Shown here piece by piece: positions 1 through 50,552 of a DNA stretch of 50,552 nucleotides. Every line of letters starts with the position of its first letter. Position 1 is the first letter of the stretch. The translations under genes and the position numbers were made by a program. Source of the DNA: Escherichia phage ADB-2; sequence record NC_019725.1; one strand, 5' to 3'. The notes below the pieces were generated by a model that worked only from the letters and a program-made list of their open reading frames with translations, did not search any database and had not been told where the DNA came from.

Positions 1-265
1 CTTTGAATGATTTTTTCATTGGGTTGCGATGGTCAAGCCCGGTGCACTTGAGCGTCTTTGTCTTCAGCTCAGTGAACTTCGCGAAGAAGATTTCATCAGA
101 TCCGTGAATCTGTAATTCATCATGCCTTTCAAGTTTTAAATACTTCCCGCATTTTAATTTTACTTCGCGAGTGCCATCATATCGCTCACGACCTTTGTAT
201 AGGTTGTTTACTTCAAATCCTGTGATTTTATCTGCGTAAGTACATTTCAGTTTGATTGATTTCAT
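1..265 (-). CDS. hypothetical protein, partial (3' end beyond window start)
   Basis: Open frame running off the window edge; ATG at 263-265 preceded by the recurring CCAATCAGGAG leader/RBS. Confidence 0.5.
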   Translation of the reverse strand, partial: MKSIKLKCTYADKITGFEVNNLYKGRERYDGTREVKLKCGKYLKLERHDELQIHGSDEIFFAKFTELKTKTLKCTGLDHRNPMKKSFK

Positions 266-345: not shown

Positions 346-555
346 TTACCAGGGAATATAATCGTCGTCGTCCTCATCAATATCATCGCCAGGTAACTCG
401 AAGTCTGGATTATATTCGCTTTCTGCATCCATATCCATATTCCCTAGCGCGTCCTCAAGTGTGATTTCTTTATATGCAACCTTGATACACCATTCCGCAC
501 TAAGCCCGGCATCAAGAGCGGCAAAATAACGAGTCCAGAAATTATCCCGTTCCAT
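346..555 (-). CDS. small acidic protein with SSB-C-terminus-like tail (ends ...GDDIDEDDDDYIPW)
   Basis: 69-aa ORF, GGAG RBS 7 nt upstream of ATG; C-terminal half strongly acidic and ends in D-rich tract + IPW, resembling the DDDIPF tip of bacterial SSB. Confidence 0.55.
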   Translation of the reverse strand: MERDNFWTRYFAALDAGLSAEWCIKVAYKEITLEDALGNMDMDAESEYNPDFELPGDDIDEDDDDYIPW

Positions 556-558
556 CAA

Positions 559-783
559 TTAACTCCATGAATTAATGTAAATTGAGCTAGCCTCAAGCGT
601 AGCGCGCACATCAGCATCTGTTGCATTTACTAAGCGAGAGCCTGGCGTGCTGCCGATAACGTTATTACCGTTACGAGTCTTAGTTACCGTCATTGAAATA
701 AAACCGGAAGACTTATCCATTTTGATAACTACACGGCCTTTCGCGTTCAGGTGCTTGATGATATTCTCAACTTTAATGCTCAT
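559..783 (-). CDS. hypothetical protein
   Basis: 74-aa ORF tightly packed with neighbours. Confidence 0.45.
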   Translation of the reverse strand: MSIKVENIIKHLNAKGRVVIKMDKSSGFISMTVTKTRNGNNVIGSTPGSRLVNATDADVRATLEASSIYINSWS

Positions 784-3233: not shown

Positions 3234-3854
3234 CCAATAATTGCTCATTATTCCATCAGTGCTGTAATAGGTGGAATAATTTTGATTGTGATTGATTGTG
3301 AATGATGAAACGTGATTATTGCATGGTGTGCAACAGTTGGTTGATTTGTTGCTTAGAATGCAATGATTGTGAGAGGGGGGATTTAGTGTTACCCGGTTCG
3401 CCTGGTGGTCATCTCCATTTTTAGCAAAACGTGCTATCGATTACGGTTACACTTGACCGCGTGTTAACAGTTGTCTACAATTTGCCTGAATCTCAATAGT
3501 AGACAAAATTACACCAAATTACGCCTTATAATATACATATAGATATATGTATATATATAATATATAAGTATTTTTTTATTTGTATATATAGATACTATTA
3601 TCTGTAATATGGTTGTATAGCGTGTCTACTATGTTAATCGTTGGATGCTCTGATTATTGTATTCATGTTTATATATACAGTAGTTTTATCGGCTCATATT
3701 TATATGGGGAAAGCGATTAACACGATTAACACGATTAACCACACTTAAAATCGACCTGCAAGCCTTGACGCAGGCGGGTCGTCGTGTAACACTGCAATTA
3801 GAGACGCGCTGTTACGCGTTAATCATTGTGTATATTGAAAATAAGGAGAAACCT
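3223..3854. promoter_or_regulatory. AT-rich divergent intergenic region with short repeats (candidate regulatory hub / origin)
   Basis: 630 bp without convincing ORF between divergent gene blocks; TATATA-rich; 3 tandem copies of GATTAACAC (3714-3741); inverted TTGTCTAC/GTAGACAA; TGATTG repeats. Confidence 0.5.
3417..3437 (-). promoter_or_regulatory. conserved intergenic element (copy 4)
   Basis: rc = ATAGCACGTTTTGCTAAAAAT; no coding gene directly downstream on minus strand. Confidence 0.55.
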
Positions 3855-10931: not shown

Positions 10932-11504
10932 ATGAAAACAGCTATCATTTTAAACGGTGCACCTGGTGCTGGAAAGGACACTATCGGATGCATCCTGGCT
11001 GACACTTACGATCATGTAGCTTTGCGCAGCTTCAAAGCACCAATGTTTGAGATTGCTCGGGCAATCTTGGGTGAAACTAACTACGAGTATTTCATGTTCT
11101 TGTATGAGGACCGTAGTTACAAAGAAGAGCCAGCATCAATCCTGAACGGTAAAAGCCCGCGCCAGTTTATGATCTGGATTAGCGAGGAAGTCATCAAGCC
11201 GCAGTTCGGAAATCGATTCTTCGGTATGCGAGCGGAAAGCAAGGTGAAAGAGTCGCACTCACTTTCGGTATTTACTGACGGGGGATTCAAAGACGAGATC
11301 TTGCAAATGATTGAAGGAGATATCCAGGTCAAGCTATGCCGCATACATCGCAACGGTTGCAACTTCGATAACGACAGTCGCGATTATATCTATCTGGACG
11401 ATATGATCGGGGTTAACGGTTATCAGGAATGTGACTTCTTCTCTGTCGAAGGTCATCCAGAAATTACCGCTCAGCACATAGCCGCTACGTTCATCAACAA
11501 ATAG
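10932..11504 (+). CDS. P-loop nucleotide/nucleoside-monophosphate kinase-like protein
   Basis: N-terminal Walker A ILNGAPGAGKDT, reminiscent of phage dNMP kinases; adjacent to HAD phosphatase. Confidence 0.55.
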   Translation: MKTAIILNGAPGAGKDTIGCILADTYDHVALRSFKAPMFEIARAILGETNYEYFMFLYEDRSYKEEPASILNGKSPRQFMIWISEEVIKPQFGNRFFGMRAESKVKESHSLSVFTDGGFKDEILQMIEGDIQVKLCRIHRNGCNFDNDSRDYIYLDDMIGVNGYQECDFFSVEGHPEITAQHIAATFINK

Positions 11505-37062: not shown

Positions 37063-37479
37063 ATGCATATTATCACTGGCGAGATCAGAAAAGAACCTAA
37101 GATTCTGGAACGTAACGGCGGGAATACTTATATCATCGAACTGGCAGAAAGCTACAAGCCTCGTGATGGCGATCGCGAATACACAAACTATACATTCTTT
37201 TTTAGTGACGGTGGAAAGCCCGGACTTGCTGACTGGTATCGTGATGCATTCCAAGTTGGTAGAGTGATCTCAGTATCTTGCGAGACGTTGAAGATCTCAT
37301 CCCGCGAGCACAACGGAACGGTTTACAATTCATTGCAGGCTGCTGATTTTCCTAAGTTGGTATTCAGCCAACGAGGGCAAGGTAATCAACAACACCGAGC
37401 ACCTCAGCAACAACAAAGCGCCCAGCAACAGCCACAACCAAATCCTCAGTCAACTTTTGACGATGATATCCCATTCTGA
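37063..37479 (+). CDS. ssb: single-stranded DNA-binding protein
   Basis: 138 aa; Gln/Pro-rich linker and canonical C-terminal tip DDDIPF. Confidence 0.85.
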   Translation: MHIITGEIRKEPKILERNGGNTYIIELAESYKPRDGDREYTNYTFFFSDGGKPGLADWYRDAFQVGRVISVSCETLKISSREHNGTVYNSLQAADFPKLVFSQRGQGNQQHRAPQQQQSAQQQPQPNPQSTFDDDIPF

Positions 37480-48756: not shown

Positions 48757-50325
48757 TTAACCCATCAGTCGAGGGTTTATGAAAACAATATCATCAATCC
48801 GGCAAGTGTAGTTCATCTCTTCGAGCGTGATCAGCAGGCTGTCGATTCTCTCAGATACTTTCTGTTGACCGTTGAACGGCGTAACATTCCGGCACTTTGC
48901 AACAATGCTATGAATCGGAGCGCGCCCTTTGTTCTTCTTTGCGATCTCAGTGATAACATCAATCAGCTTACGAGATTCAGCCTCATCACCAGCATACCCG
49001 GCAGCGCTGGCAGACGACAGATAAGTCCTGGAAAGCTCATTGAAGATCATGATTGCTTCCTGCATCGTTTCAAGGTCAATCTCACGGTTGGAACGGTTCG
49101 GTGATTCACCCTCCCAATTCTTGATCGTGTGGAGAACTGAAGCAATACGCAAGGCGTGCTTATCGAACTTGCCGAGATGACCGCGTAGCATTGAGTGAGA
49201 GTATTTCCCACCTGCGGCGAAATCCGGTTCCATCGCCTGACGCGCAAGGTTTAATTCACGCATAGCATTACGGCTTACAGAGAGAACAACGTTTTCCTCC
49301 TTCATAATGTTGTGCACGAGTCGATAATATTTACTCACCAATCCTCGATCGACTTCCTTATACAGCGCATCACCATTTTCATCACAAAGAATACGAGTAC
49401 CTAAAAGCGGTTCCTCACGAACTAAAAGGAAACGCTCAGATACGCCGATGCCTCGTTGGCCTGCGTCCATGATACCCTTGATTGTTTCATCCTGCGCAAT
49501 AACGCAGATGGAACCGACCGGGCAAAGTGATAGGTTGTTATCCTGGTTGGAACGCGCTACCTCCATGTGGTTTTTATCCCACGCCTTAAGGATAAGTTCA
49601 CTGTTTGACTTCTTGTCTGAACCGCCATAAGTCAGGCCGAGCAATGTGTTGATTGCTGTCGCCTCATCAGAGATTACGGAGAAGTGACCTTGAACAGCCG
49701 CCACCTTCGCAAGACCTTCAGGTGTAGGATCTGATACCGCGAAAACAATATCAGCCATCTTCTTGATCTTCTCTTCCAGTTTTTCTTTGTCCTCGTACAG
49801 CGCCGCCGTCGTGTTACCCTTCGGGTCGTTTTTAATTTCCTTCTCGACCTGACGTAGCTGACTGGTTAATCGGGTGCGTTCCTTTTTGCGCTCTTCATTC
49901 AGTCGCTGAATTTCTGCACGCATAGGCGTAATCGCTGCGGAGTTAATCGCAGATTTACCTGTTGAAGGTGGCTGGCTGATTACCATGTAAAGAGCGGTAG
50001 GTTGTTCTTCTCCGTGATATTGAACCCAAAACTTCCCGAGCATCGCGGCTGAGATGCACCCAATGAAATGAGCGTAAGCAGACGAAACAGGAAACTGTAC
50101 AGACTCAGCCTTTGCCTTTGCATATTCGAATACCAGGTTATCGCCACCTAACGAAATCAGAGGGAACTTATCGTTGCCGCTATTGATATCGATCGGATCT
50201 TGCCAAAATGAAACTGAGTCACCATAGCTGTTTTCACGAATTGCGATCGCCACCGGATTAACTCCAGTGCTATTGGCGATCTCAATAATCTGTTGGTAAT
50301 TCAGTTTTGGCTTAATATTAAACAT
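48757..50325 (-). CDS. putative P-loop ATPase (DUF3987-like, replication-associated?)
   Basis: 523 aa from ATG with AAGGAG RBS; Walker A-like PPSTGKS and possible Walker B VISDEA. Confidence 0.4.
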   Translation of the reverse strand: MFNIKPKLNYQQIIEIANSTGVNPVAIAIRENSYGDSVSFWQDPIDINSGNDKFPLISLGGDNLVFEYAKAKAESVQFPVSSAYAHFIGCISAAMLGKFWVQYHGEEQPTALYMVISQPPSTGKSAINSAAITPMRAEIQRLNEERKKERTRLTSQLRQVEKEIKNDPKGNTTAALYEDKEKLEEKIKKMADIVFAVSDPTPEGLAKVAAVQGHFSVISDEATAINTLLGLTYGGSDKKSNSELILKAWDKNHMEVARSNQDNNLSLCPVGSICVIAQDETIKGIMDAGQRGIGVSERFLLVREEPLLGTRILCDENGDALYKEVDRGLVSKYYRLVHNIMKEENVVLSVSRNAMRELNLARQAMEPDFAAGGKYSHSMLRGHLGKFDKHALRIASVLHTIKNWEGESPNRSNREIDLETMQEAIMIFNELSRTYLSSASAAGYAGDEAESRKLIDVITEIAKKNKGRAPIHSIVAKCRNVTPFNGQQKVSERIDSLLITLEEMNYTCRIDDIVFINPRLMG

Positions 50326-50400: not shown

Positions 50401-50552
50401 TTATAAGTATTTGGCCTCAAAGGTTGTGCCGTCAGCTATGCTAAAGCCGATCTCTTCGCGAAACAATGTCCAACGGCAACCATCCTCATCAAAAATATAA
50501 CCAGCTACGCCGCCGAGAGCGCGACCGCTTTCAACCTGGTAACGCTTGCCAA
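50401..50552 (-). CDS. hypothetical protein, partial (5' end beyond window)
   Basis: Open minus-strand frame ending ...EAKYL-TAA at 50401-50403. Confidence 0.4.
   Translation of the reverse strand, partial: GKRYQVESGRALGGVAGYIFDEDGCRWTLFREEIGFSIADGTTFEAKYL

What the first reader, a model, noticed from the sequence alone, without database searches (positions are those of the whole stretch)
346..555. Small acidic protein ending in an SSB C-terminal-tip-like motif (...MDMD...DDIDEDDDDYIPW)
The 69-aa product has an extremely acidic C-terminal half and terminates in D-rich residues followed by I-P-aromatic, closely resembling the conserved bacterial SSB tip (...MDFDDDIPF). The phage's own SSB (37063..37479) ends in the canonical DDDIPF. 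The SSB tip is the docking site for many SSB-interacting proteins, so a free-standing tip mimic could titrate host SSB partners or act as a decoy for host defences that sense SSB. I am not aware of this being a described phage protein class.
Basis: partly seen in the sequence, partly recalled or inferred. Interest (0 to 1): 0.75.

Follow-up and report, generated by a model that had tools for sequence, protein, structure and literature searches.

The report
Phage mini-protein with SSB-like tail tip
A 69-residue early protein of a T1-like phage has no DNA-binding fold, yet it ends in the same kind of docking peptide that bacterial SSB uses to recruit repair and replication enzymes, and relatives that otherwise cannot be aligned keep that tip, so it is probably a natural plug or adaptor for an SSB-partner pocket.

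Summary
The minus-strand ORF 346..555 encodes a 69-aa protein of pI 4.05 that ends ...DEDDDDYIPW. The phage SSB (37063..37479) ends DDDIPF. They are the only two of 867 ORFs in the window with a hydrophobic-Pro-aromatic C-terminus.

- **Family:** It belongs to phrog_9085/9323, found in about 455 Drexlerviridae records, all annotated 'hypothetical'.
- **Architecture:** A conserved helical N-domain of about 45 residues, then a hypervariable linker (acidic, or a four-Cys knuckle), then a tip.
- **Tip conservation:** 17 of 19 representatives at 50% identity end in [ILFM]-P-[F/W], sometimes with one extra residue.
- **W-ending tips are natural:** Viral metagenome contigs hold true SSBs ending DDIPW, and also helicases, an AAA ATPase, a dNMP kinase and DUF6511 proteins with that ending.
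- **Accessory, not core:** The gene is absent from about half of the phages that carry the neighbouring helicase. One pair of phages from the same genus, isolated on the same host strain, differs by a clean cassette deletion that removes it.
- **No known relatives:** There is no Pfam, NCBIfam, PDB or Foldseek match, and no paper describes such a protein.

Best reading: a bipartite competitor or adaptor that docks into an SSB-tip pocket. The target is unknown and binding is untested. I rate it a new variant of a known kind.

The parts
346..555 (-). CDS of the 69-aa acidic protein, stop codon 346..348 included. Member of phrog_9085. Identical to 'hypothetical protein B508_00010' of Escherichia phage ADB-2.
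415..555 (-). Conserved N-terminal domain, residues 1-47. Predicted helices at 6-15, 20-27 and 33-36, followed by the near-invariant ALG(D/N)MDMDxES motif. The same domain also occurs inside roughly 165-aa Ackermannviridae proteins.
361..414 (-). Variable acidic linker, residues 48-65 (YNPDFELPGDDIDEDDDD). No predicted secondary structure. Other lineages replace it with a four-Cys knuckle. It contains a second recurrent short motif, E[FY][DN]P[DN]F.
349..360 (-). C-terminal tip YIPW, residues 66-69. It is an SSB-Ct-like hydrophobic-Pro-aromatic-COOH motif, invariant in all close homologues.
563..566 (-). GGAG ribosome-binding site, 7 nt upstream of the ATG. The gene is translationally coupled to the upstream gene, whose stop is at 559..561.
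559..783 (-). Upstream neighbour: a basic 74-aa protein (pI 10.1, phrog_4344, function unknown). It is syntenic with the tip protein in most lineages.
1..265 (-). 5' part of the downstream neighbour, a basic 138-aa protein (pI 9.2, phrog_2684, function unknown). The gene runs off the window start and continues at 50552..50402, because the genome is circularly permuted. The DUF3987 helicase follows at 48757..50325 (-).
37063..37479 (+). Comparator: the phage SSB (138 aa), whose tip DDDIPF is encoded at 37459..37476.

Best explanation
The gene encodes a small accessory protein. It sits in the leftward unit that also holds the methylase and helicase genes, which I take to be early. The protein has two working ends. 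The first is a helical N-terminal domain of about 45 residues that binds an unknown partner. The second is a flexible, net-acidic tail that ends in a hydrophobic-Pro-aromatic-COOH tip, the same kind of peptide as the SSB C-terminal tip (DDDIPF).

The tip most likely inserts into the hydrophobic pocket and basic rim that SSB-interacting proteins use to dock on SSB. The protein would then compete with host and phage SSB for that pocket. The most probable effect is to keep an SSB-recruited host enzyme (a nuclease, helicase or restart factor) away from phage ssDNA intermediates, or to re-route it. The N-domain would supply specificity or a second contact.

Shown here: the architecture, selection on the tip, absence of an OB fold, the accessory distribution, and natural SSBs with W-ending tips. 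Inferred: that the tip binds an SSB-Ct pocket, the identity of the target, and the inhibitory direction.
For: - **Tip conserved across an unalignable linker.** 17 of 19 representatives at 50% identity end in [ILMFV]P[FW](W). Chance is 5.7e-4 per protein. In 64 of 66 full-length IMG/VR Drexlerviridae members a tip of this kind is present.
- **Purifying selection.** Tip codons vary synonymously while the amino acids are kept.
- **Specific to SSB and this family.** In 7 family-positive Drexlerviridae genomes, the SSB (always D[DS]DIPF) and this family account for essentially all ORFs with such an end.
- **W is a natural SSB tip.** True SSBs ending DDIPW exist. The same tip sits on phage helicases, an AAA ATPase, a dNMP kinase, DUF6511 and Pam3_Gp34-like proteins, sometimes on neighbouring genes. 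The tip therefore behaves as a portable docking module.
- **Structure fits a tethered peptide.** AF2 gives short helices in residues 6-36 and no structure in 37-69. A class-C homologue gives the same picture.
- **All tails are net acidic**.
- **The phage depends on SSB-centred host machinery.** It has a helicase, primase, Erf, a RecE-like exonuclease and an SSB with the host-type tip. None of the proteins I scanned was a DNA polymerase, but I did not scan every ORF.
- **Accessory distribution fits host modulation, not an essential replisome part.** About 455 records carry it against 899 with the helicase. It is absent from Webervirus KLPN7 and from a Braunvirinae genome. KLPN6 and KLPN7 differ by a clean cassette deletion.
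- **Precedent.** The acidic tail and terminal Phe of T7 gp2.5 dock on the T7 polymerase and helicase-primase (as stated in bioRxiv 10.64898/2026.02.22.705581).
Against: - No binding was tested.
- The residues before the tip are not SSB-like in most lineages, for example CKRCFPF and CRECIPF.
- Webervirus adds a residue after PF (IPFW, VPFW, VPFL), which should displace the Phe carboxylate that canonical pockets read.
- The tip differs between lineages that infect the same hosts, whereas host SSB pockets are constant. This could instead mean a co-evolving phage partner.
- A few members lack the tip: CGYWEA-type ends, CFQF and ISF.
- The most conserved part of the protein is the N-domain with the ALGDMDMDxES motif, not the tail. 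Ackermannviridae homologues keep that domain without the tip.
Confidence: 0.45

Rival explanations
1. Positive adaptor. The tip docks on a phage-encoded SSB partner (Erf annealase, RecE-like exonuclease, primase or DUF3987 helicase) or on host Pol III chi. This would bring whatever the N-domain binds to the phage replication or recombination machinery, in the way T7 gp4 and gp2.5 share a tail to reach the T7 polymerase.
For: - The gene lies in the same leftward unit as the helicase, and the basic 74-aa and 138-aa neighbours are conserved.
- The Ackermannviridae homologue sits next to the DNA polymerase gene.
- The lineage-specific tip variants (YIPW, CFPF, IPFW) look like co-evolution with a phage partner.
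- Other viral contigs have several neighbouring replication-type proteins that share such tips.
Against: - The gene is dispensable. About half of the helicase-bearing relatives lack it, including one member of a same-genus, same-host-strain pair.
- No partner has been identified.
- The phage SSB tip stays DDDIPF in lineages where the small protein's tip differs.
Confidence: 0.2
2. Tail acting as an ssDNA or SSB-tail mimic on an OB fold or a basic protein. The acidic tail and tip would bind in trans to the ssDNA-binding surface of host or phage SSB, as SSB and gp2.5 tails do in cis, or to the basic neighbour proteins. This would modulate ssDNA binding rather than block partner pockets.
For: - The tail is strongly net acidic in every lineage.
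- It is flanked by two basic proteins, of pI 10.1 and 9.2, and is translationally coupled to the first.
- Tail-to-OB-fold back-binding is established knowledge for E. coli SSB, T7 gp2.5 and T4 gp32 (my own knowledge, not tested here).
Against: - The strict conservation of the last three residues, while charge density varies widely, argues for a pocket rather than an electrostatic surface.
- AF2 shows no folded DNA-like charge array.
Confidence: 0.12
3. The tip has nothing to do with SSB. It would be a C-terminal ligand for another pocket, such as a protease degron or adaptor site, a ClpP-type hydrophobic pocket, the FtsZ-tail binding sites or the sliding clamp, or simply a structural cap of the Cys knuckle.
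For: - An LPF C-terminus is a ClpXP degron in Streptococcus mutans (PMC5143411).
- The flanks of the tip are not SSB-like in most lineages, and IPFW breaks the canonical register.
Against: - GFP-DDDLPF is not degraded by E. coli ClpXP (PMC5143411).
- The tip does not fit the clamp motif QL[SD]LF or the FtsZ tail DIPAFL beyond two residues (my own knowledge).
- Class A has no Cys at all, so the tip is not a knuckle cap.
- The only other protein in each genome with this ending is the SSB.
Confidence: 0.15
4. A chance resemblance in a fast-evolving small ORF with no function for the tail.
For: Short acidic phage ORFs are common, and the linker is hypervariable.
Against: The tip is kept over deep divergence, with synonymous codon variation. 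It is present in 17 of 19 representatives against 5.7e-4 expected per protein.
Confidence: 0.02

Closest known systems
[quoted passage not shown]
   Same: It sits at the extreme C-terminus, with a hydrophobic residue at -2, Pro at -1 and an aromatic last residue. An acidic run lies before it in this phage's version, and a disordered linker precedes it. Many homologues end in exactly IPF.
   Different: - The carrier has no OB fold and is not an SSB.
- The last residue here is Trp, and a Tyr separates the acidic run from the IP.
- In most family members the acidic residues are replaced by a Cys knuckle.
- Some members add a residue after PF.
- Binding to any partner is untested.
Acidic C-terminal tails of phage T7 gp2.5 (SSB) and gp4 (helicase-primase), both ending in Phe and both docking on T7 DNA polymerase
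   Same: This is a precedent for one phage placing the same acidic, aromatic-ended tail on its SSB and on a non-SSB protein so that both reach one docking site.
   Different: The T7 tails lack the I-P motif. The T7 target is the phage's own polymerase, and I identified no DNA polymerase gene in this phage (not every ORF was scanned). The carrier here is a 69-aa protein with no enzymatic domain.
Bas52_0087, a phage SSB-like protein with an FDDDIPF tip that triggers the DRT10 defence system (bioRxiv 10.64898/2026.04.29.721553)
   Same: It is a phage-encoded protein carrying the host-type SSB tip, and the authors propose that it interfaces with host DNA-processing factors such as ExoI/SbcB.
   Different: Bas52_0087 has two predicted OB folds and is a true SSB-like protein. 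The protein here has none.
Other viral proteins ending in DDIPW found here (DUF6511, SF2 helicases, an AAA_5 ATPase, Pam3_Gp34-like proteins, a Vilniusvirus dNMP kinase)
   Same: They are non-SSB carriers of an SSB-type tip. DUF6511 is also a small protein of about 110 aa with an unstructured tail.
   Different: Their sequences and folds are unrelated, they come from different phage groups, and none has been characterised.
Synthetic SSB-Ct peptides and small-molecule SSB-Ct mimetics used as inhibitors of SSB-partner interactions
   Same: The proposed mode of action is the same: occupying the SSB-Ct pocket to displace SSB.
   Different: Those are man-made. This would be a natural, genetically encoded version with an added targeting domain.

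Membership tests
SSB family (OB-fold ssDNA-binding proteins, Pfam SSB / TIGR00621) | An OB-fold ssDNA-binding domain detectable by sequence or structure | tested here: not met
   There was no Pfam or NCBIfam SSB hit. AF2 gives only short helices in residues 6-36. A PDB profile search and a Foldseek search found nothing.
SSB family (OB-fold ssDNA-binding proteins, Pfam SSB / TIGR00621) | A disordered C-terminal linker ending in an acidic tip | tested here: met
   Residues 37-69 have no secondary structure and pLDDT of about 60. The last 34 residues hold 14 D/E and no K/R.
SSB-Ct-type C-terminal docking motif (D-D-D-[IL]-P-F-COOH) | The motif lies at the very C-terminus with a free carboxylate | tested here: met
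   YIPW is followed directly by the stop codon. The exception is Webervirus members, which add W or L after PF.
SSB-Ct-type C-terminal docking motif (D-D-D-[IL]-P-F-COOH) | Pro at -1 and an aliphatic or hydrophobic residue at -2 | tested here: met
   I-P in this protein. [ILFMV]-P in 17 of 19 representatives.
SSB-Ct-type C-terminal docking motif (D-D-D-[IL]-P-F-COOH) | The terminal residue is Phe | tested here: inconclusive
   It is Trp here, and Phe in most other lineages. Genuine SSBs ending DDIPW exist in viral contigs, for example L180 and L168, so W is a natural variant. Whether enterobacterial pockets accept it was not tested.
SSB-Ct-type C-terminal docking motif (D-D-D-[IL]-P-F-COOH) | Acidic residues at -3 to -5 | tested here: inconclusive
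   This protein has D at -4 to -7 but Y at -3. Across the family this is not conserved: CRECIPF, CKRCFPF, FMGIPF.
SSB-Ct-type C-terminal docking motif (D-D-D-[IL]-P-F-COOH) | Binds the hydrophobic pocket and basic rim of SSB-interacting proteins | not testable with these tools
No multimer or docking tool was available.
T7 gp2.5/gp4-type acidic tails | An acidic tail with an aromatic last residue that docks on the phage's own DNA polymerase | tested here: not met
   The tail features are present, but none of the window proteins I scanned was a DNA polymerase (not every ORF was scanned).
DNA-mimic inhibitors (Ocr, ArdA, T7 gp5.9) | A folded protein whose surface carboxylates imitate the DNA backbone, or homology to a known mimic | tested here: not met
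   There is no homology. The acidic part is predicted to be unstructured and is replaced by a Cys knuckle in most relatives.
PHROG families phrog_9085 / phrog_9323 (function unknown) | A full-length profile match | tested here: met
   phrog_9085 at E = 8.5e-46 over residues 1-69. phrog_9323 at 2.4e-22 over the N-domain only. Other lineages match phrog_9323 over their full length.

The most novel reading that the evidence does not exclude
This would be the first natural, genetically encoded mimic of the bacterial SSB C-terminal tip. The phage mini-protein would use a host-type short linear motif plus a small targeting domain to plug the SSB-binding pocket of a specific host genome-maintenance or defence-linked enzyme, and so rewire the SSB interaction hub during infection. 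It would be one example of a wider, unrecognised habit of phages of attaching SSB tips to non-SSB proteins.
Probability: 0.35. Interest if true: 0.8.

Novelty: new variant of a known kind. Interest (0 to 1): 0.62.

Why it matters
SSB's tip is the hub through which bacteria recruit replication, repair and restart enzymes, and it is a proposed antibiotic target. Several newly described defence systems respond to phage SSBs.

A natural protein that carries only the tip plus a targeting domain would show that phages exploit this hub by motif mimicry. It would give a ready-made, evolution-tuned inhibitor scaffold. It would also assign a testable function to a gene present in phage T1 itself and in hundreds of phages isolated for therapy or found as laboratory contaminants.

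The side observation also matters. Helicases, ATPases, kinases and small DUFs in environmental phages end in DDIPW. This suggests that tip-sharing is a general wiring principle of phage replisomes that has only been worked out for T7.

Tried and rejected
- **Family and structure searches found nothing.** Pfam, NCBIfam and PDB sequence searches, and Foldseek on the AF2 model, gave no meaningful hit. The weak SgrT, BSD and SbcC_Walker_B hits (E > 0.04) are noise.
- I built a paired alignment of the upstream 74-aa protein fused to the tip protein from 25 phages.
- **'Core replisome adaptor' was rejected.** It was my working idea because of the adjacency to the helicase. The helicase is in 899 records against about 455 with this gene, and two genomes plainly lack the gene.
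- **ClpXP degron was considered and down-weighted.** The DDDLPF tag is not recognised by E. coli ClpXP (PMC5143411).
- **FtsZ C-terminal peptide, sliding-clamp motif and ClpP IGF-loop mimicry were considered from memory and set aside.** The match does not go beyond two residues.
- **DNA mimicry of the Ocr or gp5.9 type was rejected as the main idea.** The acidic run is lineage-specific and predicted to be unstructured.
- **Co-variation with the phage SSB tip was checked and not seen.** The SSB tip is constant (D[DS]DIPF) while the small protein's tip varies.
- **Nine literature searches found no described phage SSB-tip mimic**.

Full report
**What is there**

The window is a complete, circularly permuted genome of a T1-like phage (Tunavirus, Drexlerviridae). 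It is about 91% identical to Shigella phage ISF002 over the first 3 kb.

The finding is a minus-strand gene, with its ATG at 555 and its stop at 346..348. It has a GGAG ribosome-binding site 7 nt upstream, and starts 4 nt after the stop of the preceding gene.

The product is 69 aa with a pI of 4.05. Its last 34 residues hold 14 D/E and no K/R, and it ends DEDDDDYIPW. The identical protein is deposited as 'hypothetical protein B508_00010' of Escherichia phage ADB-2, and every named member of its cluster is 'hypothetical'.

The phage SSB at 37063..37479 ends STFDDDIPF. Of 867 stop-to-stop ORFs of at least 30 aa in the window, these two alone end in [ILVMF]-P-[FWY]. The chance of that ending is 5.7e-4 per protein.

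**The family and the conserved tip**

Close relatives (60 clusters, 61-97% identical) all keep YIPW, while the acidic stretch before it drifts.

A profile search of 1.84 billion representative proteins gave 27 hits, and a second indexed search gave more. These relatives share the first 45 or so residues: F.R...A.DAGLN.EW..KVA....TL.EALGDMDMD.ES. After that they cannot be aligned. The linker is either acidic or carries a C-x-C...C-x-x-C knuckle.

Almost all of them nonetheless end in IPF, IPW, LPF, FPF or MPF, and in Klebsiella Webervirus in IPFW, VPFW or VPFL.
- 17 of 19 small-protein representatives at 50% identity have [ILMFV]-P-[FW](W).
- 64 of 66 full-length Drexlerviridae members from IMG/VR have a tip of this kind.
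- Tip codons vary synonymously while the residues stay fixed.
- A few members have lost the tip: CGYWEA-type ends, one CFQF and one ISF.

In seven Drexlerviridae genomes that carry the family, the SSB always ends D[DS]DIPF. The family member is essentially the only other ORF with such an end.

**What the protein is not**

It has no OB fold.
- Pfam, NCBIfam, a PDB profile search and Foldseek give nothing.
- AlphaFold2 with a 48-sequence alignment gives three short helices (6-15, 20-27, 33-36; pLDDT about 76). Residues 37-69 have no secondary structure.
- A Cys-knuckle homologue gives the same picture, with one extra helix.

The N-domain also occurs inside roughly 165-aa proteins (phrog_4823) of Ackermannviridae. 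There it is followed by a different C-terminal region without the tip, and the gene lies beside the DNA polymerase gene. The protein is therefore bipartite: an independent small domain joined to a tethered peptide.

**Is a Trp-ended tip still an SSB tip?**

Of those hits, 112 close ORFs of at least 40 aa, and these fall into 26 sequence clusters.
- Some have canonical SSB-like N-termini and Q/P-rich linkers, for example L180 and L168.
- Others are SF2 helicases, an AAA_5 ATPase, Pam3_Gp34-like proteins, DUF6511 and a Drexlerviridae dNMP kinase.
- Some contigs carry two neighbouring proteins with such tips.

Two things follow. W is a natural variant of the SSB tip. Placing SSB-type tips on non-SSB proteins is also recurrent in phages. 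The worked-out precedent is T7, where the acidic, Phe-ended tail of gp2.5 docks on the polymerase and the helicase-primase (as stated in bioRxiv 10.64898/2026.02.22.705581).

**Genomic context and distribution**

The gene lies in a leftward unit that runs from a divergent promoter-like region near 3450-3590, with no terminator-like site on that strand. The unit runs through the DNA methylase and small ORFs to a basic 74-aa protein, then this gene. After it come a basic 138-aa protein, the DUF3987 helicase and a 135-aa protein.

The phage also encodes a RecE-like exonuclease, an Erf annealase, the SSB and a primase. None of the proteins I scanned was a DNA polymerase. I did not scan every ORF in the window, so absence of a polymerase gene is not shown. 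If there is none, the phage must work with the host's SSB-centred machinery.

The gene is not core. The helicase is found in 899 phage records but this family in about 455. Webervirus KLPN7 and a Braunvirinae genome have no family member by an unfiltered HMM search and no second tip-bearing ORF. KLPN6 and KLPN7 were isolated on the same host strain. They differ by a clean two-gene cassette that contains this gene. That pattern suits an accessory host-modulating or counter-defence gene better than an essential replisome part.

**Mechanism**

The best-supported reading is that the tip docks in an SSB-Ct-type pocket. The protein would then act as a competitor, or less likely as a recruiter, with the N-domain giving specificity.
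- Steps shown: the architecture, selection on the tip, its uniqueness in the genome alongside the SSB, natural W-ended tips on real SSBs, and the accessory distribution.
- Steps inferred: actual binding to an SSB-partner pocket, the identity of the target, and the inhibitory direction.

Three things count against a strict mimic.
- Most lineages lack acidic residues directly before the tip (CRECIPF, CKRCFPF).
- Webervirus has an extra residue after PF.
- Tips differ between lineages that infect the same hosts, which could point to a co-evolving phage partner.

The rival explanations were weighed as follows.
- A positive adaptor to phage replication or recombination proteins.
- A tail acting in trans on an OB fold or on the basic neighbour proteins.
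- A non-SSB pocket. The degron version is weak, because DDDLPF is not a ClpXP tag in E. coli (PMC5143411).
- Chance, which the conservation data effectively exclude.

**Comparison with what is known, and novelty**

Nine full-text searches found no natural phage protein described as an SSB-tip mimic. The nearest report is Bas52_0087, which has an FDDDIPF tip and is proposed to interface with SbcB. It has two OB folds, however, so it is an SSB-like protein.

The protein here fails membership of the SSB family because it has no OB fold. It meets most, but not all, sequence features of the SSB-Ct motif. I rate it a new variant of a known kind: an SSB or T7-type C-terminal docking tail on a novel, non-SSB mini-protein.

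**Limits**

The structural models have only moderate confidence (pLDDT about 66). The 455-versus-899 comparison rests on tblastn with short, divergent queries, although two negative genomes were checked directly with an HMM.

Noticed in passing
L003 45918-46535 (Klebsiella phage KLB19) and L115; the window homologue is at 10932..11504: A Vilniusvirus dNMP kinase copy ends ...HHVDWSDDIPW, which is an SSB-type tip. The homologous kinase in this window ends ...AATFINK, with no tip. KLB19 also appears to carry a partial duplicate of the kinase gene.
   Followed up: partly
L083-L202 (IMG/VR contigs): DDIPW-COOH closes at least 112 viral ORFs in 26 clusters. These include canonical-looking SSBs, a family of about 90-100 aa (42 members), a 197-aa family (17 members), Pam3_Gp34-like proteins, DUF6511, SF2 helicases and an AAA_5 ATPase. 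SSB-type tips on non-SSB phage proteins seem common and undescribed.
   Followed up: partly
L105, L107, L108, L166 and L180: Neighbouring genes both end in acidic-[I]P[FW] tips. A 527-aa protein ending ...GGTEEEIPF sits next to a 274-aa protein ending ...DDIPW, and an SSB ending ...DDDIPW sits next to a 257-aa protein ending ...LELDEIPF. This suggests several proteins share one docking site.
   Followed up: no
L082 3471-3998 (Klebsiella phage Menlow gp022) and L077-L081: Ackermannviridae proteins of about 165-175 aa (phrog_4823) contain the same N-domain and ALGDMDMD motif. It is followed by an acidic stretch and a conserved C-terminal region (...GGxAAWExQNEKNAWLDSRL) instead of the tip. The gene lies next to the DNA polymerase gene, transcribed divergently from it.
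   Followed up: partly
window 1..265 plus 50402..50552 (-): The 138-aa gene downstream of the finding is split by the window ends, so the window is a circularly permuted complete genome. The 138-aa protein (phrog_2684, pI 9.2) and the upstream 74-aa protein (phrog_4344, pI 10.1) are both basic, conserved and of unknown function.
   Followed up: partly
L004 9614-9967 versus L203 (Webervirus KLPN6 and KLPN7): The cassette missing from KLPN7 also holds a 117-aa protein with a Cys-rich C-terminus (...CCEAPGCGAVYKV...KTCSKSCAASL). It may be functionally linked to the tip protein in Webervirus.
   Followed up: no
P0060 (Shigella phage vB_SsoS_008): This is an annotated 98-aa ORF that fuses the C-terminal part of the upstream 74-aa protein to the N-domain and stops after MDMD. 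It is probably a sequencing or frameshift artefact, but it is the only fusion of the two neighbours that I saw.
   Followed up: no
window 361..414 (-) and homologues: A second short motif, E[FY][DN]P[DN]F, recurs just after the N-domain in several otherwise different linker classes. It appears as GFDPDL in the Ackermannviridae homologues.
   Followed up: no
window 37063..37479 (+): The phage SSB matches the canonical ssb model TIGR00621 only through its linker and tip, and below the cut-off. Pfam gives it no SSB domain, although phrog_44 matches well. Its DNA-binding core is very divergent.
   Followed up: no
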